From assembly GCA_000004985.1 (NCBI GenBank), contig GG738985.1: a DNA stretch of 14,937 nucleotides. One strand, written 5' to 3'. Positions 598 through 13,563 of this stretch are shown here, piece after piece. The translations under genes were made by a program, and so were the position numbers. The stretch comes from Naegleria gruberi (lineage: Eukaryota). Within the stretch, counting starts at the first letter, position 1, and each line of letters opens with the position of its first letter. The notes under the pieces were generated by a model. That model did not search any database. It worked only from the letters and a program-made list of their open reading frames with translations, and had not been told where the DNA came from.

Positions 598-1065
598 TTT
601 TTAATCGACGAAAGGTCAACATGAATATCGAGAATCAAAAGGCCACAAAAAGAAATGTCCTTCTAAAAGGTTCTCGGGAGAAATCATCAACACCTTTCGA
701 TAAATTGGGATTACAGCTTTTATGGATCATCAAATCAGAAGCAATCAAGATCTTGTTTTCAATCTATGACGCTAAGAAAAAGACTACAGCACCACAGGTT
801 CCCAAGTTGTCTCCAACCTCAGTACTGATGTGGCTCGACCTTGGAGAGCAATAGTAACGTAGAAGATGCAGAATAGGCACGGTCTTTTTGTGTTATTTTT
901 AACGTTCCTTTGTCGTACCTTGACCGCACCTCTTTTGTGTGTCTATTTTTATTTCTTTTTGTGTTTCTTTCATCTCAACCTAGAAACGAGAAAAGACACA
1001 AAAAAAGGAACGGAAAAGTATCATGAAAAGAAATTTGAATAGAATCAATAAATAGGCACATTAAC

Positions 1066-1121
1066 GAGAAACTGTAAAAGAAACATTAATAAGCACATGA
1101 AGAGAAATTGTAAAAGAAACA
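1066..1121. repeat. Two imperfect 20-bp direct repeats (gagaaaCtgtaaaagaaaca at 1066-1085 and gagaaaTtgtaaaagaaaca at 1102-1121), separated by 16 bp, in an A-rich intergenic region.
   Basis: Seen directly in the sequence, with a single C/T mismatch. The surrounding sequence is also built from AAAGAAAC-like units. Confidence 0.4.
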
Positions 1122-1265
1122 AATAGAGTAATGTCATAAGAAACAAGTACAGACTCGAGAAAAGAAATACAAAGAGAAACAACATTAGTTAAAGCAATAT
1201 TTGGTGAATCCAATTTTGGAATGTTAAATTTTTAAAAATTTAAAATAAATGTAATTAATCTAAAT

Positions 1266-1957
1266 TTATTGGTTTAATGTTATTTCGTCTATTAATTCTT
1301 CTGTTACAATTAGCACTTGATTTGTTTCTGATATGCCTTTGAAATTCTGTAATAAATTCTTCAGTATCCAATAATGCAAACCCTAAAATATTTGAAAAAT
1401 AATTAAAATTAATTAAAAATAAATAAAATTAACATACAATTTCTTTCAAGTCTTCTTCTTCTCTTTCAGTAAGCTCTTCTTCACTTCTTGCTTCCAAAGT
1501 TTCTGAAAATAATTTTACAAAGTGATGGGCTAATGACACTAACAATTCTTCCTTCTTTAAAATATCTAGTACAAAATCCGAACCTTGTTTTTGTACATAT
1601 TTGTAAAAACCTTGAATAATACCTTTGGAAAACCTATTCTGTATTTAATTTAATAATTATACGAATAACTTACACTTTATGTTTGGTTTGCCAAACCTTT
1701 TTTAATCTAGTATGATTTAAACTTGCAAATTTTGTATCGGAAAGGTTTGGTATAATTCTTTTTGTTCTTTCTGTCAATAAGAATTATCACACTGGTAATA
1801 ATTAGATAGAATACTTACTCTTTGATACTTTCTTTTGTGGTGTACCTTGTGAAGTTTGTTTGTTTTGAGTTGATTCTTGATCAGATTCTTCTTGATCAGA
1901 TGCTGATCTTGGTGAGGTATATTGATTTGAAGGGGTTGGTTGTGATCTTGCTGGCAT
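1266..1957 (-). CDS. Four-exon gene for a ~183-aa protein of unknown function, with a Ser/Gln-rich N-terminus and an acidic stretch near the C-terminus. Exons are 1819-1957, 1676-1770, 1438-1638 and 1266-1382.
   Basis: Manual splicing on the minus strand. The ATG is at 1957 (MPARSQPTPSNQYTSPRSASDQEESDQESTQNKQTSQGTPQKKVSK). There are three short introns with canonical ends, and the reading frame is kept across all junctions (…KRTKRIIPNLSDTKFASLNHTRLKKVWQTKHK | NRFSKGIIQGFYKYVQKQGSDFVLDILKKEELLVSLAHHFVKLFSETLEARSEEELTEREEEDLKEI | GLHYWILKNLLQNFKGISETNQVLIVTEELIDEITLNQ*). The exact 3' acceptor of the last intron, and hence the C-terminal frame, is the least certain part. Confidence 0.5.
1383..1437 (-). 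other. Spliceosomal intron, 55 nt, GTATGTTAA…TATTTTAG.
   Basis: Minus-strand sequence GTATGTTAATTTTATTTATTTTTAATTAATTTTAATTATTTTTCAAATATTTTAG. The donor is a canonical GTATGT. It is extremely AT-rich, as expected for introns in this kind of genome. Confidence 0.45.
1639..1675 (-). other. Spliceosomal intron, 37 nt, GTGTAAGT…AAATACAG.
   Basis: Minus-strand sequence is GTGTAAGTTATTCGTATAATTATTAAATTAAATACAG. Splicing here gives phase 0 and a fully open 67-codon exon 3. Using the GT two nucleotides downstream gives a stop within ~20 codons. Confidence 0.45.
1771..1818 (-). other. Spliceosomal intron, 48 nt, GTAAGTAT…TTGACAG.
   Basis: Minus-strand sequence is GTAAGTATTCTATCTAATTATTACCAGTGTGATAATTCTTATTGACAG. 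Removing it joins exon 1 (ending with 1 nt of phase) to an exon 2 frame that is open. The alternative acceptor at 1792 gives an immediate stop. Confidence 0.45.
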
Positions 1958-2101
1958 GTCTGGTCGAAAGTGAGTCGAATATTGATGTTAACTTACTGAT
2001 ATTTTTTTGTTGTTGTTTTTCTACTTTTCTCTGGCAGTGGTGATATGAACACTTTACAATCTATTTTTAAAATATCGGCAAAATTTTGGAAAAAAAAATA
2101 A

Positions 2102-4969
2102 ATGAAAATTCCACAAGCGAAAATATTGTTTTCACACAGGGTTGACCCTCGAAAAGCAAAACTGTATTGTTCTAGTTGTAATAATTATGTGAAATCATCA
2201 ACTGATGTCAAAATTTGTAGTTCAAGTAACAAAAAATCTCATTTTCATAGGGCAATTAAAGTTAGGTGTAAAAATCAAGAATGTAAAAATTTTGATTCAT
2301 TTACCACCTTAATATGCCCCTTTTGTTCAAAGTCTTTTTCAAATGCAACCACTTTAAAGAAACATTTGAAAAGTGAGCACACAAATAGAAATAGTATATT
2401 CAATTGTTGTAATGTGATAACCTCTGAAGAAGCAACAATAATGGAACATATAATTGATAATCATCTTCCTCATATTGATTCATTAGATCAACTAACATCA
2501 AATTCTTGCAACCATTCCGTACAACAGAATGACAATAATATTAATTTTAGGCACGTTCCAGAAGGTGCACAAACAGATGAAAATGCTTATTGGGCAGTTT
2601 GGAAAATGAGCAAAAATTCAAAAACATTAATATTTGAGCCCAATAGTGATAAATCAGTTAAGGAAGTTGGTGATGAATTAGAAGAATCATATAAGAAAGT
2701 TATTGGAGATTTATTTGATTGTAGTTCAATAATTGAATCAAAACAAATTGAAAATAATATTGAAATTGAACATATTCATAATAGATTCGAATCAAAATAT
2801 GCTCCTTTCAAAGATGAATTTGAATGGAGTCTGTTCATGTTAGTTAAAAATGACAGATTGTCAAAAGTTCAGTATGAAAGAGTTGTTGAGATATTTGCTT
2901 TAAAGGATATTAATATTCCTTCTTATGATTCTATTTGTAGAAAACCTATTGATTTTCAAAAACCTATTTCACCACTAGATGATAATGATTTTGTTTATTA
3001 TAGTTTAAGGGAAACTATCAACAATCTGCTTGCAGATCCTTTTATTTCTAATAATATTTATACTAAAGATGGAGCTCTTAACTTCAATAGAGAACAACAA
3101 CCATTCAAAACAAATGGTTTCATGAAGATTGCCAACAAGATTGATTCAACTCCTATTGTATTTGCTCCATATTTAGATGAATATCAAAAGAATAGAACAG
3201 GTACAAGTCAAGTTACTGGATTTTATTTTACTTTATTCAACTTTGAACATAATTTTATGACAAGCTCAATGGAATCCATTTCATTACTTGGGAAATGTAG
3301 AAATATTAAGGGTTTATTTAAAATGTTGGAAATGTTTGTTAATGAATATAATGAAATTGAAGGGAAAACATTTATTGTGAAACATTCAGGTTTACAAAAA
3401 GAAGTATCTCTTCAATACGTATTAGGTCCTTGGATTTGGGATTCAGTTCAAAGATGGTTTACTTTATTCATGGAACAATATCTTTGCTCCAGATGTCATT
3501 GTCCAAAAAATATGTACAGCTCAACTCCAGATGAATTAATTGATTCATACAATGAGTTCTGTTTCAAGAATCCGTCTTTAAATTTGAAACAATTTATACC
3601 AAAGCCCTGTAAAGAACATGAAACGGAAACAGAACAAGAATTGCAAGTTGAAACTGATCTCCAAACGCACAATCCAAATGATATTGATGAAGAATGTAAT
3701 TATTTCAATCCAGAAACAGGAAAAGAAGATGATCAAGATGAAGAAAATCAAGAAACTGATAATATGGAAGATGAACCAGTTTTAGAACATACATTTAGCA
3801 TTAGAACTGTAGATGAAGCTGTTTCAATTCATGAAAGTATTGAAACAACACCTAAAAAGGAAAGAAAAGGGTTTAAATTATTATCAAAACAAGAAATTGA
3901 ATTAATTGATTCAAAATTTGATTACAATACTGTACAAAGAAAGCTCACTCAAATGAAAAAAAATGGTGTTACACTTGAAAAACAAGATAACCCATTGTAT
4001 AAGCTAAGAAATCATGACGTATTTAAGAATTCAACAGTTGACTTTATGCATGTGTTTGTTCAAGGTGAATTAAGAAGACATTTGACTGCATTAATAGAAT
4101 ATTTTTCATACCCAAGATTATTTTCTGATTTTCAGGATATTATAGATGAGTTTTATTTAAGTTCTGGAGAATCAATTAGAATGAGAGCATCAAATTATTT
4201 GAATTGTTCAGCTGACGAATTTTTAGAATTTGGTTTTTATAGTATTCCAATAATTTACAAGTTAATTTATTCAAATAAGGAATTGAAACATATTTCACAA
4301 GAAAAAAGAACTAGACATGTTGTTTGTTGGGTAGAACATATTGCATGGACGAGTATGTTATTAAGAAATGAGGTAACAATTCTTTCTATTGAAAAATCCA
4401 AATCTATTTTCCTCCAATTCAGAGAACATTATGTTGAATTATATCCAAACAAATGTCATAATGTTAATTTCCATTGGGTAACTCATTTATTTGAAGATTG
4501 TCAAGAATGGGGAAGTCCTAGATACTTTTGGGCTTTATTATTCGAATTGAAACACAAACTTTTTAAAAAGTTTAATGATGGATCGAATCATAAGGATGTT
4601 GAAAAGCGGGGTGCAGCATTTGAAAAGTTACATGTCAGTCTTAATGCTAAATATCCTTGGTTACGAAAGAAATCAAAACAATGGTTTAAAGCAATTGCTC
4701 CAAATCAATACTTAATGTTTAAACAAGAAGGAAAATTATACATAGGATGTATTCAATCACATACAAAAGATACAGTTAAATTTGGAAAAGTGTGGATTGT
4801 TACAAATGATTATCACCAAGTATGTCAATTCAGAAAATTGAATAGAGTGAAATCTTCCAATTTAAACGTTGATTGGAAAGATATCAATGCTAGATGCCAA
4901 GTTGTTTACATTGATTCCAAGTTTTACTTGAATCAATTTATGTTAATCATGAATTATTATAAATTTTAA
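2102..4969 (+). CDS. Intronless 955-aa ORF. It has an N-terminal C2H2-type zinc finger, an acidic central linker, and a C-terminal region resembling Tnp2/En-Spm-type (CACTA/KDZ-superfamily) transposases. It is a putative transposase or a transposase-derived gene.
   Basis: ATG at 2102 in an A-rich context (aaaaaaaaataaATG), then a single 2.9-kb ORF. The C2H2-like finger is LICPFCSKSFSNATTLKKHLKSEH. The block KDGALNFNREQQPF…FYFTLFNFEHNF…LLGKCRNIKG…CSRCHC follows the layout of the Tnp2-family catalytic region (DG…F, then a conserved C..C cluster). The C-terminal HNVNFHWVTHLFEDCQEWGSPRYFWALLFELKHKLFKK fits the DUF4218-like motif H..HL..D...GP...W..FE...K.L that I recall from Tnp2/CACTA transposases. 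There is a poly-acidic linker (DEECNYFNPETGKEDDQDEENQETDNMEDEP). The family assignment is from memory of these motifs, not from a search. Confidence 0.55.
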   Translation: MKIPQAKILFSHRVDPRKAKLYCSSCNNYVKSSTDVKICSSSNKKSHFHRAIKVRCKNQECKNFDSFTTLICPFCSKSFSNATTLKKHLKSEHTNRNSIFNCCNVITSEEATIMEHIIDNHLPHIDSLDQLTSNSCNHSVQQNDNNINFRHVPEGAQTDENAYWAVWKMSKNSKTLIFEPNSDKSVKEVGDELEESYKKVIGDLFDCSSIIESKQIENNIEIEHIHNRFESKYAPFKDEFEWSLFMLVKNDRLSKVQYERVVEIFALKDINIPSYDSICRKPIDFQKPISPLDDNDFVYYSLRETINNLLADPFISNNIYTKDGALNFNREQQPFKTNGFMKIANKIDSTPIVFAPYLDEYQKNRTGTSQVTGFYFTLFNFEHNFMTSSMESISLLGKCRNIKGLFKMLEMFVNEYNEIEGKTFIVKHSGLQKEVSLQYVLGPWIWDSVQRWFTLFMEQYLCSRCHCPKNMYSSTPDELIDSYNEFCFKNPSLNLKQFIPKPCKEHETETEQELQVETDLQTHNPNDIDEECNYFNPETGKEDDQDEENQETDNMEDEPVLEHTFSIRTVDEAVSIHESIETTPKKERKGFKLLSKQEIELIDSKFDYNTVQRKLTQMKKNGVTLEKQDNPLYKLRNHDVFKNSTVDFMHVFVQGELRRHLTALIEYFSYPRLFSDFQDIIDEFYLSSGESIRMRASNYLNCSADEFLEFGFYSIPIIYKLIYSNKELKHISQEKRTRHVVCWVEHIAWTSMLLRNEVTILSIEKSKSIFLQFREHYVELYPNKCHNVNFHWVTHLFEDCQEWGSPRYFWALLFELKHKLFKKFNDGSNHKDVEKRGAAFEKLHVSLNAKYPWLRKKSKQWFKAIAPNQYLMFKQEGKLYIGCIQSHTKDTVKFGKVWIVTNDYHQVCQFRKLNRVKSSNLNVDWKDINARCQVVYIDSKFYLNQFMLIMNYYKF

Positions 4970-5606
4970 AAATTTTGAAATTCTTTTACAATAAAAAAAT
5001 TTAATATTGAAATAATAATATATTTATTCGATAGTTGTTCAACCTTTTCAGGTAAAAAATTAAATTTATGTAATAAAGGACTCATTCTATAATATTACGA
5101 TTAATTTAAAATTCATATTGTTTATTTATTGTTAAATAAGTGTTATTTGTACTTTTATAGAAAATTAGCAAGGATTTCAATGGTGGAACTGACTTGTAAA
5201 AATTTTAAAAATATCCATGCCTTGTTTGCATACCTATTCCCGTTCCTATTTTCTGCCGTACCTTGGTCGTTTCTTAAAAATAAGTCACCAAACCTTCGCT
5301 GTTCCTTGCCAATTCTATTTTTATTACACACCGTACCTTTTCCATGCCTCACCATTCCTGTTGCGCTCCAAGGTATTTCTTGACTAAAGCAACATGTCAA
5401 TCTGTCCAGTGTTGGCTTTGTTAGTGTGAAAAAATTAGAATGGAAAGTAATCCGCCCTTGACTAGTGACAAAAACACTAATAGATTAGGTTTTAGTCTGC
5501 AATTAGAATGTAAGCTGTAAATTGTCACTTTGAGATCTCAATCGATTATAAACTCAATGGTTTAAGGTGTGTGTACAAAATATATTGAGACAATATCATT
5601 TTAATA

Positions 5607-8005
5607 CTAAAAAATGTGATCATCAGAATCATCATCATCGTCATCATCTTCATCATAGTAATTACCATATATATAACCCATATCAAGATCATCAGAATCA
5701 TCAGAGTTATAATCATCATCCTCATCAGATGTGTCTTCTTCCATGCTGTCTGTGTTAACCTGTACTTCTAATTGCTGTGTAATCCTTTTCAAAAGGGATG
5801 TCACATACAGGCTTCTCGACTCATTGAATGAAATGCAATCTGTTATAGCATCAAAAATGTCATCAACATTCAAATGTTTTGGTCTTACATCTAGATTGTG
5901 CTCTAAAATATTTAAAAAATTTGTTAAAACAAGCTCAGATAATACATCGGTATCATTTTCATAGAGGAATCCACAGGGACAGCCAAACTGGCCCATGNNN
6001 NNNNNNNNNNNNNNNNNNNNNNNNNNNNNNNNNNNNNNNNNNNNNNNATACGTCCCAACGTGATATGAGCGTCTTTAGATTTGGATTTGGCAAGAGATTT
6101 AACAATAACTTCTTCATTTCCTATTTCAGGATGAATACGAACACCCTTAAAAAATTTGACATCAAAAAAGAAGCTCACTACAATTGGTGATAACTCTCTA
6201 TCATTCTCAACTAAAAAACCCAACATTTCTGGAATTTGAAAATGCTTTGATATTTCATTCAATCGATCCTCGCATTCTTTTGTTTCAGGTAGATTGTTTC
6301 TATGGACAATATTTCCTAAATTTTTGAAAACCAACTTAGTAAGCTCTGTGTTCAACAAGGACTCAACCAATTTTTGAACAATATCCACTACTTCCAAAGA
6401 TTTAGAATCTATTGCTCCACGAACAATCTCATCAAGTGGACGTACAAGTGTCTCACTAAAAACAGAGGGCAGAGCAGGTATGTTCAGCAAGGCCTGAATA
6501 CTGTCGGCAACCTGTAAAAAATAGTCCTGCTCTTTCATACATTCAGCTACTTTTTGAATAACCTCGAGAGCTTTTTCTGAAAAAATACTTTCTGTACAAC
6601 AATACTTAAATGCTGCTGTGAATATTTTCAGATAATTAACTTTTGGTATTGGATTGAGAGAAAAGGCTTTCAAAATCTTGTGCATTATCTGAGAGTCGTA
6701 TGCATAATCAAATGTCAAGTGTTTGGCACCACAATTATATGCCTCCTCTCTTACTATTAAAGATTCCCTTTCTAGCAATGGCAATATAGCTTGAACAACA
6801 TTCTTACATCTAGAAAAATTTCTGTTGAAAACATGTTAGCAAGAAATAATATGATCCACTACTAACCTTTGATTATTACTCGGTGATGAAAGAGCTCTCA
6901 AACAATCTATTACTAATTCTTCATCAGAATATTTCAATAGTCTCGTTAAGAAGCTTGAAATGCTTTCAACAATATTATTATCACCTCTTTGATCAATTAT
7001 TTCCATTATAGAAATTATCTTTCTAACTCTCTTGTACTTTTCCTCTTTTGGAAATATTTTGATGCTTTCTTTTTCTATAACATTGATATCATATGAAACT
7101 TCCTGATAGAGAGTAAAGAAGGGATGTAAATCTTTGGCTGATTTATAAGCCTCACGAATTGAAGGTATTTTTGGATTGTCTATATGTTGATAAGCAGTCT
7201 TTCCTAATCTTGTTATACACATTGATCTTTGATCCTCATCTTTTGACTTGTAAATTAAATCTAATAATATGCAATCCATGTCATTCATATCAATATAACT
7301 ACCTTCCCAGTTAGATGCATTATAATAGGTAACTATTAGAGACTTGAAATGTTTTAAGAAATATTTGACCTGTAAACTTGGTACACCTGCTTCTGCAATC
7401 TTGATGGTTGCCACAAAGAGTGAAATCTTCCAATCAGGTATTTTCATTGATTGTGTGGTATAAAGTGTTATTGGCTGTTCAGTCTGACCTATTGCCACAT
7501 TCAAGAAATTTAACATGTTTGTTCCGAATGTGGAATCCAAACAATAGATATGCTTTAAAAATCCTCTTGCTGTGTTCTGGTTATTTTCTTCAAATAGGAA
7601 AGCATTCGGAAGTGCCTCGGCAGCCATCATACATATTTTGTAATTTACAATCATTTCATCATCACTTGATTCAATTTTAAAAGTATCATCTTCAGTACAG
7701 CCAAAACTCCACTCCTTTCCATTTGATACTGTTTTATACATTTCAATTAAATTTTGTACAAGTGTTTTACATGGCTCCTTTCGGTAAGAGGCTTGATTTA
7801 TCACTCTATTTCTCATCTCCTTTAAATGTTGTAATAATTCCTCTGATGTATATGTTGGCCAAGCCTCTGCCTTTTGATTTATATCCTGTTGAGTTTCATC
7901 AGAGTAATAATCAGAGTCATCATCACTCGAAGAATAATCCCGTCCATGCATATGATAACCAAACGAATGACCAAATCTTCGCACCAATCCCATATGATTG
8001 AACAT
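5607..8005 (-). CDS. Large (>800-aa) ARM/HEAT-like helical protein with Asp/Ser/Tyr-rich acidic N- and C-termini. It is one gene made of track ORFs 6836-8005, 5924-6784 and 5607-5996, joined by a 45-nt intron (6822-6866) and interrupted by the 50-N gap at 5998-6047.
   Basis: ATG at 8005 (MFNHMGLVRRFGHSFGYHMHGRDYSSSDDDSDYYSDE…). ORFs 6836-8005 and 5924-6784 are in the same frame. They are separated by a single TAA at 6836-6838, and the following 17 codons have no stop. The 5924-6784 ORF begins with TTG (the track printed it as M), so it has no start of its own. Removing the intron GTTAGTAG…CTAAC…CAACAG (6822-6866, 45 nt = 15 codons, with the TAA inside it) joins …SSPSNNQ to RNFSRCKNVVQAILPLLERESL… in frame. 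The ORF then runs into the gap. Below the gap, ORF 5607-5996 continues as a coding-looking sequence and ends …DDDYNSDDSDDLDMGYIYGNYYDEDDDDDDDSDDHIF*. The frame across the gap cannot be known. Confidence 0.6.
5998..6047. other. Scaffold gap of 50 N, inside the large minus-strand gene.
   Basis: A run of exactly 50 n. All five N runs in the window are exactly 50 long, which is a fixed-size gap placeholder, so the true length is unknown. Confidence 0.95.
6822..6866 (-). other. Spliceosomal intron, 45 nt (GTTAGT…CTAAC…ACAG), which contains the in-frame TAA that splits the two track ORFs.
   Basis: Minus-strand sequence GTTAGTAGTGGATCATATTATTTCTTGCTAACATGTTTTCAACAG. A branch-point-like CTAAC lies ~18 nt before the AG. 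Its length is a multiple of 3, which fits the fact that the flanking ORFs share a frame. Its size matches the other introns in the window. Confidence 0.6.
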
Positions 8006-8088: not shown

Positions 8089-8421
8089 TTATGTACTGTC
8101 TCGGAAGTGAATTGATCGTTGTCGGAATGGTTTTTCANNNNNNNNNNNNNNNNNNNNNNNNNNNNNNNNNNNNNNNNNNNNNNNNNNAGCAACTAAAACG
8201 AATTTAGTTCTTCTAGAATCATCATCAACAGCAACAGCACGATAAATACCAAACTTGACATCAGATGGACCGAATGAACCCAAGAATTCATCCCAATCAC
8301 CAGTACCAGTGGCATCCATGATCAAACCAGTCTTTTCTGGGACGAAAGTGAACCATTTAATGGATTCAGTCTTCAAGGATTCCCAAGCAGCATCAATTTC
8401 TGGAGCAACGTTAGTGGACAT
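8089..8421 (-). CDS. Coactosin-like ADF-H (actin-depolymerising-factor homology) domain protein. The C-terminal part is lost in the 50-N gap at 8138-8187, so the 3' end is uncertain.
   Basis: ATG at 8421 in context aaaaaaaaacacaagaacaaaATG. The product is MSTNVAPEIDAAWESLKTESIKWFTFVPEKTGLIMDATGTGDWDEFLGSFGPSDVKFGIYRAVAVDDDSRRTKFVLVA…. This matches the coactosin/COTL1 pattern (ID…A…W.TF…G.G…F…DV…S.R.KF.L..W) as I remember it. The track ORF start at 8454 (MFSHKKKHKNK) is probably 5' UTR. Below the gap the frame is arbitrary. One frame ends at TAA 8073-8075 (…SDNDQFTSETVHNILLI*) and another at 8089. Confidence 0.7.
   Translation of the reverse strand: MSTNVAPEIDAAWESLKTESIKWFTFVPEKTGLIMDATGTGDWDEFLGSFGPSDVKFGIYRAVAVDDDSRRTKFVLVAXXXXXXXXXXXXXXXXXEKPFRQRSIHFRDST
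8138..8187. other. Scaffold gap of 50 N, inside the coactosin-like gene.
   Basis: A run of exactly 50 n. Confidence 0.95.
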
Positions 8422-10294: not shown

Positions 10295-10344
10295 NNNNNN
10301 NNNNNNNNNNNNNNNNNNNNNNNNNNNNNNNNNNNNNNNNNNNN
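10295..10344. other. Scaffold gap of 50 N, in an AT-rich intergenic region.
   Basis: A run of exactly 50 n. Confidence 0.95.
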
Positions 10345-10984: not shown

Positions 10985-11381
10985 ATGAAATTCAAGAGGA
11001 ATAAAACGTTAGACGAAACCGTTGTGTCTCCTTCCTCGTCAACACCAACCAATACATCATCTTCTTCTACATCGTCATCCTCTTCAAAGAAAAGACCTAG
11101 CAGTGTAAATAGTGACTTTGATGTTTCGAATTATGCCATTGTTTTTGAAGAAATGATGGATTCGAAAGAAACTCGTGATTTATTCTATGAATATTTGCAG
11201 CTTAATCGTTCGGTGGAATCTCTCATGTTCATGAATCAAGTTGAAGAATATCGTGCGGAATATAACAAGAAATTCGAGAATGTTATTTGTGGTGAAAATG
11301 TTGATAAAAAGCAAGNTTCATACCAAGATTGTAGAAATCTATTCGAAAGCAAGGGGTATTCTTGATCAATTTGTGTTCAAG
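10985..11381 (+). CDS. RGS (regulator of G-protein signalling) domain protein, 5' part. It has a Ser/Thr-rich N-terminus and the RGS domain begins ~residue 50. It is truncated by the gap at 11382-11431, and there is an apparent frameshift at the ambiguous base 11316.
   Basis: ATG at 10985 (MKFKRNKTLDETVVSPSSSTPTNTSSSSTSSSSSKKRPSS…). The next part, FEEMMDSKETRDLFYEYLQLNRSVESLMFMNQVEEYRAEYNKK, fits the RGS-box N-terminal consensus (F..ML.S..G…F..FL..EFSEENL.FW.ACEE(F/Y)KK). After the n at 11316 the RGS-like continuation (…IVEIYSKARGILDQFV, compare the canonical KAKKIYEEFI) is in the +1 frame. The frame-1 stop at 11363 therefore looks like an artefact. Confidence 0.65.
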
Positions 11382-11431
11382 NNNNNNNNNNNNNNNNNNN
11401 NNNNNNNNNNNNNNNNNNNNNNNNNNNNNNN
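11382..11431. other. Scaffold gap of 50 N, separating the 3' ends of the RGS gene (+) and the kinase gene (-).
   Basis: A run of exactly 50 n. Confidence 0.95.
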
Positions 11432-12539: not shown

Positions 12540-12589
12540 NNNNNNNNNNNNNNNNNNNNNNNNNNNNNNNNNNNNNNNNNNNNNNNNNN
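12540..12589. other. Scaffold gap of 50 N, inside the 5' part of the kinase gene.
   Basis: A run of exactly 50 n. Confidence 0.95.
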
Positions 12590-12792
12590 GTCAGATGCAA
12601 AATCAAATTAACTTCAAATAAATGTTGTGTTGACTGTACAAATTATAGAAGAAGTATCAAAAATCCTTGCGTAAAATTATTTCAACTCCTGCTCCCGCAG
12701 ATTCTCCGTTGTAACAAATTTTACTCCGCAAACACAGTGTGCATAAATCAGGCGCAAGCATTGAACATCTCTCGATAACACTCAACAAAAAA

Positions 12793-13563
12793 ATGCAAAC
12801 ACTCCACCTTGCCATCATTGCTGTCTTGTTAATGACCTTGGCCGTCATCTCTCATGGCCAAAACTCCAAGATTAACATAAAGACTCCAAAGTATACTTGC
12901 TGTATGCCTCGTGCTCACACTGTCCACGCCAAAGTTACTAGAATGGGACTTTCCAACTGTAATCCATCAAATGGTGATTGTCACTTTGATGGGGTGAAGA
13001 TTATTCGTGAAAAACACATGCCAGATTTCTTCCATCGTCGTTATCGTTTAGATTTACAAATTGAAGTGAATGGAAAAGTGGTGAGTGATGAAACTACATT
13101 AGGTTTCATGGATACTTATCCATCTAACTTTGGTGTTGAATATGTTTTTAACAAAACTACTTGTTCCTGTAAACAATTGACTAGACAAGCTGCTTACTTG
13201 ATGGTTTCATGTGTTGATGCTGATTATCAATTGGAAGGACATGTTGATATCGGAATTAAGAGTGAAGATCATATTAAATCCCAGAAATTCATTCGTACAA
13301 AGCAATTGAACTCCAATACTACACAAATTGATGTGATGGTCGTTCAACCAGTTCAAACTAAACCCCAACCACTTCCATATCCAGATCCATATCCATCAGA
13401 TTATAATTGTGCTATTGTTTATTCCGATACTAGAATTGAAAGTAGAGACACCAAAGGTCAATTGAATAATTTGGAAACTATTTCAAGTGAATGTTGGGAC
13501 TTTTTGCCTTTTAACACTGATAGTGATTATGTGCTTCCATCTTATTGTCCAAAATGTCATTAA
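12793..13563 (+). CDS. Secreted cysteine-rich protein of unknown family, 256 aa, with an N-terminal signal peptide and a Pro/Tyr-rich PYPDPYP segment.
   Basis: The ATG at 12793 is preceded by aaaaaaa. The product MQTLHLAIIAVLLMTLAVISHGQ is a typical signal peptide. Cysteines occur in pairs (CC, C..C, CSC, CPKCH), which suggests disulfides. The track ORF starts at 12739 but has no ATG there. The stop is at 13561-13563. Confidence 0.6.
   Translation: MQTLHLAIIAVLLMTLAVISHGQNSKINIKTPKYTCCMPRAHTVHAKVTRMGLSNCNPSNGDCHFDGVKIIREKHMPDFFHRRYRLDLQIEVNGKVVSDETTLGFMDTYPSNFGVEYVFNKTTCSCKQLTRQAAYLMVSCVDADYQLEGHVDIGIKSEDHIKSQKFIRTKQLNSNTTQIDVMVVQPVQTKPQPLPYPDPYPSDYNCAIVYSDTRIESRDTKGQLNNLETISSECWDFLPFNTDSDYVLPSYCPKCH

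What the first reader, a model, noticed from the sequence alone, without database searches (positions are those of the whole stretch)
2102..4969. Intronless 955-aa C2H2-finger ORF resembling Tnp2/En-Spm (CACTA/KDZ-superfamily) transposases, with no terminal inverted repeats that I could find by eye
Several genes in this window carry short introns, yet this 2.9-kb ORF is uninterrupted. It combines an N-terminal C2H2 finger (LICPFCSKSFSNATTLKKHLKSEH), a poly-acidic linker, a DG…F / C..C-cluster core (KDGALNFNREQQPF … CSRCHC), and a C-terminal block HNVNFHWVTHLFEDCQEWGSPRYFWALLFELKHKLFKK. That block matches the H..HL..D..GP…W…FE…K.L signature I associate with the DUF4218/Transposase_21 regions of Tnp2-like transposases. 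It sits only 144 bp from a divergently transcribed host gene, and I see no CACTA-type terminal inverted repeats (TIRs). So it may be a domesticated transposase or a decayed, TIR-less copy rather than an active element. Either possibility is interesting in a small-intron protist or fungal genome.
Basis: partly seen in the sequence, partly recalled or inferred. Interest (0 to 1): 0.6.

Follow-up and report, generated by a model that had tools for sequence, protein, structure and literature searches.

The report
Intact RAG1/EnSpm-type DNA transposon in Naegleria
The 955-aa intronless ORF is the transposase of a cut-and-paste DNA transposon of the EnSpm/Plavaka/Transib/RAG1 group in Naegleria gruberi; it looks catalytically intact, seems to sit within its own inverted repeats, and is an ordinary if poorly annotated mobile element, not a domesticated host gene.

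Summary

It behaves as a mobile element, not a domesticated gene. A 100%-identical copy lies on another scaffold, and sister subfamilies are multi-copy. Homologs in N. lovaniensis and Willaertia are non-syntenic and degraded. A sister element in N. lovaniensis (six copies, 4,391 bp) has perfect 12-bp TIRs (CCTAGGAGCAGA) and 2-bp target-site duplications.

The window carries the related motif CCTTGGAG exactly twice, inverted, at 839 and 5373. This defines a 4,535-bp candidate element that also contains the 'host' gene upstream. The window's own target-site duplication is not confirmed (GA versus TA). KDZ affinity is not supported.

The parts
838..883 (+). Candidate left terminal inverted repeat. 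The terminal 12-mer is CCTTGGAGAGCA at 839-850.
   Evidence: It forms an inverted match with 5330-5374 (35/47 nt; 13/14 at the tip). CCT[AT]GGAG occurs only twice in the window, at 839(+) and 5366-5373(-); simulation gives P about 2.5e-4. It shares the CCTWGGAG core with the validated N. lovaniensis TIR.
1258..1957 (-). Small intron-containing gene (annotated P0114, 146 aa), divergent from the transposase. It is probably an element-borne accessory gene of unknown function.
   Evidence: Exons were mapped by tblastn. It has no Pfam hit. Its only relative among 5.8e9 proteins is P0115, on the same 938-kb scaffold as the second transposase copy, and the shared exons are 100% identical. The validated sister element has the same layout.
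2102..4969 (+). Transposase ORF, 955 aa, intronless. The official model NAEGRDRAFT_76420 starts at M114 and so misses the finger.
2315..2464 (+). N-terminal zinc-finger region: a C2H2 finger (C72, C75, H88, H93) followed by a CC...H-x4-H module (102-121). It is presumed to bind DNA at the element ends.
   Evidence: Pfam zf-C2H2 hits fall just below threshold. The region is conserved in Willaertia, in the N. lovaniensis subfamily and in metagenomic relatives.
3149..3463 (+). RNase H-like catalytic core (aa 350-454), with D359 (3176-3178) on the first strand and D447 (3440-3442) after the last strand.
   Evidence: AF2 secondary structure with pLDDT above 90. D447 is invariant and D359 is at least 90% conserved. 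These residues align to the DxF and DxPA motifs of Tnp2/Plavaka proteins.
3485..3496 (+). C(2)C zinc-ligand motif (C462, C465).
   Evidence: Invariant in the family. It aligns to the CxxC of Tnp2/Plavaka relatives. It is part of the clade signature described in PMC12730594.
3539..3790 (+). Acidic, disordered linker (aa 480-563). This is a lineage-specific insertion.
   Evidence: pLDDT is below 50. It is absent from paralog P0001 and most relatives. It is 31% D+E.
4472..4546 (+). H791-x3-H795 zinc ligands and E815, the inferred third catalytic residue (the DUF4218-equivalent block).
   Evidence: H791 and H795 are invariant and E815 is at least 90% conserved. The block overlies the weak DUF4218 hits in P0062, P0075 and P0082. 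It aligns to ...HLHCH...GPP...W...FER of a Tnp2 protein. E815 lies in a helix.
4709..4930 (+). C-terminal small beta-barrel domain (aa 870-943), function unknown.
   Evidence: AF2 predicts beta strands with pLDDT above 90. Foldseek gives probability 0.97-0.99 to LSm-type barrels, but with weak E-values. The domain is conserved in the family.
5330..5374 (-). Candidate right terminal inverted repeat. The terminal 12-mer on the minus strand is CCTTGGAGCGCA (5362-5373).

Best explanation
The ORF encodes the DDE transposase of an autonomous, or very recently autonomous, cut-and-paste DNA transposon. The element belongs to the clade that unites EnSpm/CACTA, Mirage, Chapaev, Plavaka, Transib and RAG1.

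The most likely element is 839-5373 (4,535 bp). In order it contains: a left inverted repeat; a small intron-containing accessory gene on the minus strand; a 144-bp divergent promoter region; the intronless transposase; and a right inverted repeat.

Inferred mechanism, by analogy with RAG1/Transib and CACTA elements:
- The N-terminal zinc fingers bind the element ends.
- The RNase H-like core uses D359, D447 and E815 with divalent metal to nick and release the ends.
- A structural zinc site is formed by C462/C465 and H791/H795.
- The element reinserts with a short staggered cut, which gives a 2-bp duplication in the sister family.

Shown: homology, fold, motif conservation, copy number, lack of synteny, and the TIR/TSD structure of a sister family.

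Inferred: the catalytic roles of the named residues, the exact ends of this particular copy, and present-day activity.
For: Family assignment:
- HMMER against 1.8e9 representatives finds 90 relatives.
- Some of these carry above-threshold Plavaka or Transposase_21 domains and weak DUF4218 in the expected positions.
- A profile built only from Pfam-negative members matches a Tnp2+DUF4218 protein (99.4%, E 1.5e-21, 435 columns) and a fungal Plavaka protein (98.5%, E 1.9e-15, 453 columns).

Fold:
- The AF2 model has core pLDDT above 90 and pTM 0.73.
- The Foldseek top 39 hits are all RAG1 or HzTransib, then scores drop sharply.

Signature:
- D359, D447, C462xxC465, H791xxxH795 and E815 are all invariant or at least 90% conserved.
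- This is the order published for the clade (PMC12730594).

Mobility:
- An identical copy of both the transposase and the small gene lies on a 938-kb scaffold.
- Paralog subfamily B has four copies, 99.2-100% identical, on four scaffolds.
- Subfamily C in N. lovaniensis has six 4,391-bp copies, 99.6-100% identical, in six different gene contexts. These have perfect 12-bp TIRs and 2-bp TSDs in 6/6 copies.
- The homologs in N. lovaniensis (L004) and Willaertia (L005) are non-syntenic. L004 is frame-disrupted and has no left arm, and L005 is truncated.

Ends in the window:
- CCTWGGAG occurs only at 839(+) and 5373(-) (P about 2.5e-4).
- The layout distances match the validated element.
- Removing 839-5373 leaves a 474-bp intergenic spacer between two host genes.
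Against: - No Pfam transposase model hits the protein directly, and no PDB sequence hit is found even with a family profile.
- The window's candidate TIRs are imperfect (74% over 47 nt). The flanking dinucleotides differ (GA versus TA), so no target-site duplication is confirmed.
- The termini are CC...GG, not the CA...TG usual for the clade.
- Subfamily A is known from only two copies in N. gruberi. I could not read the second locus, so the ends are not verified by copy comparison, and a segmental or allelic duplication is not excluded.
- The accessory genes of the window and of the validated element show no detectable similarity.
- No TIRs were found in three metagenomic contigs.
Confidence: 0.8

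Rival explanations
1. It is a domesticated, transposase-derived host gene. On this view the protein now serves a cellular function as a zinc-finger DNA-binding or nuclease factor, and is no longer part of a mobile unit.
For: - The ORF is intact, and the catalytic and zinc residues are conserved.
- Subfamily A has a low copy number in N. gruberi.
- The ORF lies in a gene-dense region of ordinary host genes.
- No target-site duplication is verified.
Against: - The homologs in N. lovaniensis and Willaertia lie in unrelated neighbourhoods and are degraded. That is the opposite of a conserved host gene.
- A 100%-identical second copy on another scaffold includes the adjacent small gene.
- Candidate TIRs with the family's terminal motif bracket the unit.
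- Sister subfamilies are plainly mobile.
Confidence: 0.07
2. It is a structurally intact element that exists at a single locus and is no longer mobile. On this view the 'second copy' on the 938-kb scaffold is an allelic or redundant assembly of the same locus, and the inverted motif pair is a relic or a coincidence.
For: - The window is a small (14.9 kb) scaffold with six assembly gaps.
- One neighbour gene has a 98.8% twin elsewhere, which shows that haplotype-like redundancy exists in this assembly.
- The TSD is not intact.
Against: - The neighbour's twin is on a 304-kb scaffold, not on the 938-kb scaffold that holds the transposase twin. Another neighbour is unique to this scaffold.
- The two copies differ by an indel inside the small gene.
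- Subfamily B has copies on three large scaffolds.
Confidence: 0.12
3. It is a KDZ (Kyakuja-Dileera-Zisupton) type transposase, or an ordinary C2H2 transcription factor.
For: Only the presence of Cys-rich modules and one C2H2 finger.
Against: - No KDZ model appears among the Pfam hits of the query at E up to 10, or of 87 relatives at E up to 0.001.
- The whole conserved core aligns to Tnp2/Plavaka proteins and folds like RAG1.
- The finger occupies 22 of 955 residues.
Confidence: 0.01

Closest known systems
EnSpm/CACTA (Tnp2; Pfam Transposase_21 + DUF4218) transposons of the CMC superfamily
   Same: - It is homologous over the whole catalytic region to a Transposase_21/DUF4218 protein (HH probability 99.4%).
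- It has the same D, D, C(2)C, H(3)H, E order.
- It has a two-gene element layout.
- TSDs are short in the sister family (2 bp).
- RepeatModeler already labels 38 fragments 'CMC-EnSpm' in N. lovaniensis (PMC6125883).
   Different: - There is no direct Pfam hit.
- The termini are CCTWGGAG..., not CACTA.
- The transposase is intronless and has N-terminal C2H2-type fingers and a C-terminal beta-barrel.
- Identity to Tnp2 proteins is only about 16-25%.
Plavaka transposons of fungi (Pfam PF18759)
   Same: - The family relative P0011 carries an above-threshold Plavaka domain.
- The HH match to a Candolleomyces Plavaka protein is 98.5% over 453 columns.
- PlavakaA also makes 2-bp TSDs (PMC12730594).
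   Different: - Plavaka termini are TGT..ACA or CATCA..TGATG (PMC12730594).
- The host range is fungal.
- The query itself does not hit the Plavaka model.
RAG1 / RAG1-like (ProtoRAG) / Transib transposase
   Same: - They have the same zinc-ligand and catalytic motif order.
- From my own knowledge of mouse RAG1 (D600, D708, C727/C730, H937/H942, E962), the H-to-E spacing of 20 residues is the same as H795 to E815.
   Different: - There is no detectable sequence similarity.
- There is no RAG2-like partner.
- Transib makes 5-bp TSDs with CACGGTG-type ends.
- Residue-by-residue superposition of the active site could not be done with these tools.

Membership tests
CMCT clade (EnSpm/CACTA-Mirage-Chapaev-Transib-Plavaka, incl. 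RAG1) | DDE/DDD triad on an RNase H-like fold | tested here: met
   D359 and D447 lie on and just after the beta strands of a beta-beta-beta-alpha-beta-alpha-beta unit, and E815 lies in a helix. All three are conserved at 90% or more. They align to the corresponding motifs in Tnp2 and Plavaka proteins. Catalysis itself is inferred.
CMCT clade (EnSpm/CACTA-Mirage-Chapaev-Transib-Plavaka, incl. RAG1) | [quoted passage not shown] | tested here: met
   C462xxC465 and H791xxxH795 are invariant in 16 family members. The order D447 < C462 < H791 < E815 is as published.
CMCT clade (EnSpm/CACTA-Mirage-Chapaev-Transib-Plavaka, incl. RAG1) | RAG1/Transib-like three-dimensional structure | tested here: met
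   [not shown]
CMCT clade (EnSpm/CACTA-Mirage-Chapaev-Transib-Plavaka, incl. RAG1) | TIRs and 2-5 bp target-site duplications | tested here: inconclusive
   This is met in the sister subfamily (12-bp perfect TIRs and 2-bp TSDs in 6/6 copies). In the window there are candidate imperfect TIRs, but the flanks are GA versus TA.
CMCT clade (EnSpm/CACTA-Mirage-Chapaev-Transib-Plavaka, incl. RAG1) | 5'-CA...TG-3' termini ('in most cases', PMC12730594) | tested here: not met
   The termini are CCTAGG.../CCTTGG....
Pfam Transposase_21 (PF02992) / DUF4218 (PF13960) / Plavaka (PF18759) | Score above the gathering threshold against the family HMM | tested here: not met
   None of these models hits the query, even at E up to 10. 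They are reached only through relatives and by profile-sequence HH comparison.
CACTA/EnSpm sensu stricto | CACTA terminal sequence with subterminal repeats, 3-bp TSD | tested here: not met
   There are no CACTA termini. The sister family has CCTAGG ends and 2-bp TSDs.
KDZ (Kyakuja-Dileera-Zisupton) | Match to KDZ transposase/CxC domain models; 8-bp TSD | tested here: not met
   No KDZ-type model is among the Pfam hits of the query or of 87 relatives. The sister family's TSD is 2 bp.
Domesticated transposase gene | Single copy, with orthologues conserved in the same syntenic position in related species | tested here: not met
   There are at least two identical copies in N. gruberi. The N. lovaniensis and Willaertia homologs sit in unrelated contexts and are degraded.

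The most novel reading that the evidence does not exclude
Probability: 0.3. Interest if true: 0.5.

Novelty: new member of a known kind. Interest (0 to 1): 0.35.

Why it matters
- **Annotation.** The result turns several 'predicted proteins' of Naegleria (NAEGRDRAFT_76420, 64044, 65790, 51042, 71659, 76741 and a dozen N. lovaniensis models) into transposase genes. It also shows that the official models cut off the DNA-binding N-terminus.
- **Element definition.** It defines a Naegleria DNA transposon with exact ends (4,391 bp, 12-bp TIRs, 2-bp TSD). The near-identical copies suggest recent activity. This is useful for repeat masking and possibly as a genetic tool in an organism with few such tools.
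- **Evolution.** It adds a deep-branching protist lineage to the group from which RAG1 arose.
- **Scope.** It is not a surprise for specialists. CMC-type repeats were already flagged automatically in the genus.

Tried and rejected
- **Direct family scans.** Pfam and NCBIfam scans of the protein gave only a sub-threshold C2H2 hit.
- **PDB sequence searches.** Searches with the single protein and with the family profile gave only noise.
- **Word-indexed homology search.** It found one paralog and even missed the self cluster.
- **Viral contigs.** No relatives were found.
- **Metagenome locus scan.** The 5-sequence alignment confirmed no loci.
- **AFDB fold search.** It was unavailable.
- **Fetching N. 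gruberi DNA for the other copies.** These proteins are not on record, so the ends of this copy could not be verified by copy-to-copy alignment.
- **Long TIRs by generic repeat finding.** This returned only AT-rich noise.
- **TIRs within the 144-bp and 637-bp spaces next to the ORF.** Nothing credible was found.
- **TIRs in three metagenomic contigs.** None were found.
- **Homology between the window's upstream gene and upstream ORFs of metagenomic relatives, or the accessory gene of the validated element.** None was detectable.
- **Neighbour ORF 6836-8005 as a synteny probe.** It has no homologs at all.
- **Rfam.** There was only a sub-threshold 5S-like hit that overlaps the left arm, judged spurious.
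- **Third catalytic residue.** I first considered the residue two positions after H650 (F652 here, E in many relatives), which would have implied inactivation. I rejected this because the clade signature places H(3-4)H before the last E, and E815 fits that with RAG1-like spacing.
Full report
**Observation**

The window has one outstanding ORF, 2102..4969 on the plus strand, ATG to TAA, 955 codons. The DNA is about 28-30% G+C. At that composition the chance of 955 stop-free codons is about 2e-33, and G+C by codon position is 37/29/19%, a clear coding signature. The divergent upstream gene starts 144 nt away and has short GT-AG introns.

**Source**

Exact look-ups show that the window is an entire 14,937-bp scaffold of Naegleria gruberi NEG-M. 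The official model for this ORF (NAEGRDRAFT_76420, 842 aa) starts at M114 and so omits the finger. The longer reading is supported because the finger region is conserved in Willaertia magna, in N. lovaniensis and in metagenomic relatives. The other genes in the window are ordinary host genes: cofilin/ADF, a putative cyclase, an RGS-domain protein and a protein kinase.

**Family**

- Pfam gives only sub-threshold C2H2 hits at residues 71-93. Nothing matches Transposase_21, DUF4218, Plavaka or KDZ, even at E up to 10.
- NCBIfam and PDB sequence searches are empty.

An exhaustive HMMER scan of 1.8 billion representatives finds 90 relatives. Most have no Pfam domain, but a few do:
- P0011 matches the query at E 1e-20 and carries an above-threshold Plavaka domain.
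- P0074 (a Candolleomyces protein) carries Plavaka at 8e-45.
- P0075 and P0058 carry Transposase_21 at 4e-19 and 1e-14.

I then built a profile from 16 members that have no transposase-type Pfam hit. By HH-suite it aligns to the Tnp2-type protein with probability 99.4% (E 1.5e-21, 435 columns, query 296-852). It aligns to the Plavaka protein with 98.5% (E 1.9e-15, 453 columns).

An AlphaFold model built from the 87-sequence alignment is confident in the conserved parts (pLDDT above 90 for about 230-490 and 562-955; pTM 0.73).
- Foldseek against the PDB returns RAG1 chains and the Helicoverpa Transib transposase as the top 39 hits (E down to 1e-9). After these, scores jump to E of 0.1 or worse.

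**Active-site signature**

In the family alignment, D447, C462, C465, H650, H791 and H795 are invariant. D359 and E815 are conserved at 90% or more. The order is D, D, C(2)C, H(3)H, E. This is the signature published for EnSpm, Mirage, Chapaev, Transib, Plavaka and RAG1 (PMC12730594). In the model, D359 lies on the first strand and D447 just after the last strand of the RNase H-like unit, and E815 lies in a helix. The protein therefore looks catalytically competent, but the roles of these residues are inferred, not tested.
- The CSRCHC cluster and the C-terminal block were correctly spotted.

**Mobile or domesticated?**

Four observations point to a mobile element.
1. **Second copy.** NAEGRDRAFT_64044, on a 938-kb scaffold, is 100% identical over residues 471-955.
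2. **Paralog subfamily B.** It is 35-40% identical to the query. It has four copies, 99.2-100% identical, on four scaffolds of 530, 362, 342 and 7.7 kb.
3. **No synteny.**
   - The closest N. lovaniensis homolog lies right after an HSP70 gene, among BTB, GST and VWD genes.
   - That copy switches frame three times and has no left arm. The frame switches might be long-read assembly errors.
   - The Willaertia homolog sits among Kelch, RCC1, myosin and PFK genes and stops after query residue ~385.
4. **A validated sister element (subfamily C, 29% identical over the full length).**
   - It encodes an identical protein on six N. lovaniensis contigs.
   - The six loci share a 4,391-bp unit at 99.6-100% identity, with sharp ends and unrelated host flanks.
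   - It has perfect 12-bp TIRs (CCTAGGAGCAGA...TCTGCTCCTAGG) and 2-bp target-site duplications in all six copies: AT, AA, TT, TT, AA, TT.
   - It carries an uninterrupted 870-aa transposase ORF with the same fingers and motifs, and a small intron-containing gene divergently upstream.

The N. lovaniensis genome paper already lists 38 'CMC-EnSpm' fragments from RepeatModeler (PMC6125883).

**Ends of the window's copy**

- The motif CCT[AT]GGAG occurs exactly twice in the 14.9-kb window, at 839-846 on the plus strand and 5366-5373 on the minus strand. That is the inverted orientation expected of TIRs, and it brackets the small gene and the ORF.
- A composition-matched simulation gives about 2.5e-4 for such a pair in those flanks.
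- The arms align over about 47 nt (35 identities), with 13 of 14 terminal bases identical.
- The right end of the N. lovaniensis L004 copy also ends ...CTCCTAGG.
- The layout matches the validated element. TIR to small gene is about 430 versus 450 bp, the divergent gap is 144 versus 136 bp, and stop codon to right end is 404 versus 489 bp.
- Removing 839-5373 leaves 474 bp between two host genes.
- The weak point is the target-site duplication, because the flanking dinucleotides are GA and TA.

**The small upstream gene**

Its product (annotated as P0114) has only one relative among 5.8 billion proteins. That relative is P0115, on the same 938-kb scaffold as the second transposase copy. The exons the two models share are 100% identical. 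P0115 also has a ~66-aa segment that the window does not encode, so the two copies differ by an indel. The small gene is therefore duplicated together with the transposase, as the TIR positions predict. It has no Pfam domain and no detectable similarity to the accessory gene of the sister element, so its function is unknown.

**Conclusion**

- **Verdict.** The finding is a DNA transposon of the EnSpm/Plavaka/Transib/RAG1 group, probably intact and recently mobile. It is not a domesticated or TIR-less relic.
The Tnp2/En-Spm resemblance holds.
The KDZ link, the absence of TIRs and the 'host' status of the upstream gene do not hold.
- **How it departs from textbook CACTA elements.** The termini are CCTWGG, the sister family's TSD is 2 bp, and no Pfam model recognises the protein.
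- **Novelty.** The kind is known and was already flagged automatically in the genus, so I rate it a new member of a known kind with moderate-to-low interest.

**Caveats**

- I could not read N. gruberi DNA outside the window, so the ends and the TSD of this copy are not verified by comparison with the second copy.
- An allelic or segmental origin of the second copy is unlikely but not excluded. One neighbour's twin lies on a different, 304-kb scaffold, and another neighbour is unique to this scaffold.
- Residue-level superposition on RAG1 could not be done with these tools.

Noticed in passing
L004:8272-8336 and L004:11113-11177 (N. lovaniensis PYSW02000058.1): A perfect 65-bp direct repeat brackets the degraded transposase copy. 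The right copy starts immediately after the element's ...CTCCTAGG end, and the left copy ends about 20 nt before the transposase ATG. It is too long for a DDE target-site duplication, it is absent from the N. gruberi window, and it remains unexplained.
   Followed up: partly
window 6836-8005 (-): This 389-aa ATG-initiated ORF has no homolog at E of 1e-10 or better among 5.8 billion proteins. It has no Pfam domain and no annotated model. It is probably part of a multi-exon orphan gene together with 5607-6784.
   Followed up: partly
window 781-864 (-): A sub-threshold Rfam 5S rRNA-like match (32.6 bits against a gathering score of 38) overlaps the candidate left TIR arm. It is probably spurious.
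   Followed up: no
window 4709-4930 (+), aa 870-943 of the transposase: A conserved C-terminal small beta-barrel resembles LSm/SH3-type domains (Foldseek probability 0.97-0.99, but E about 0.3). No such domain exists in the RAG1 core. It might serve targeting or protein-protein contacts.
   Followed up: no
window 5998-6047, 8138-8187, 10295-10344, 11382-11431, 12540-12589 (and a single N at 11316): Five runs of exactly 50 N lie inside or next to coding regions. These are assembly gaps in this small scaffold, and they interrupt several neighbour gene models.
   Followed up: no
window 12790-13563 (+): This secreted-looking 256-aa protein (NAEGRDRAFT_54674) has a 98.8%-identical twin on a 304-kb scaffold and a 99.6% relative on an ENA contig. 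This suggests haplotype-level or recent duplication of this part of the scaffold.
   Followed up: partly
L008:5617-8229 and window 2102-2440: Official gene models of both species cut off the N-terminal zinc-finger region of these transposases (742 versus 870 aa in N. lovaniensis; 842 versus 955 aa in N. gruberi).
   Followed up: yes
P0104 (N. fowleri KAF0980746.1, 186 aa): A fragment in the human pathogen N. fowleri clusters at 90% identity or more with the multi-copy N. lovaniensis subfamily C. So remnants or copies of this transposon family also exist in N. fowleri.
   Followed up: no
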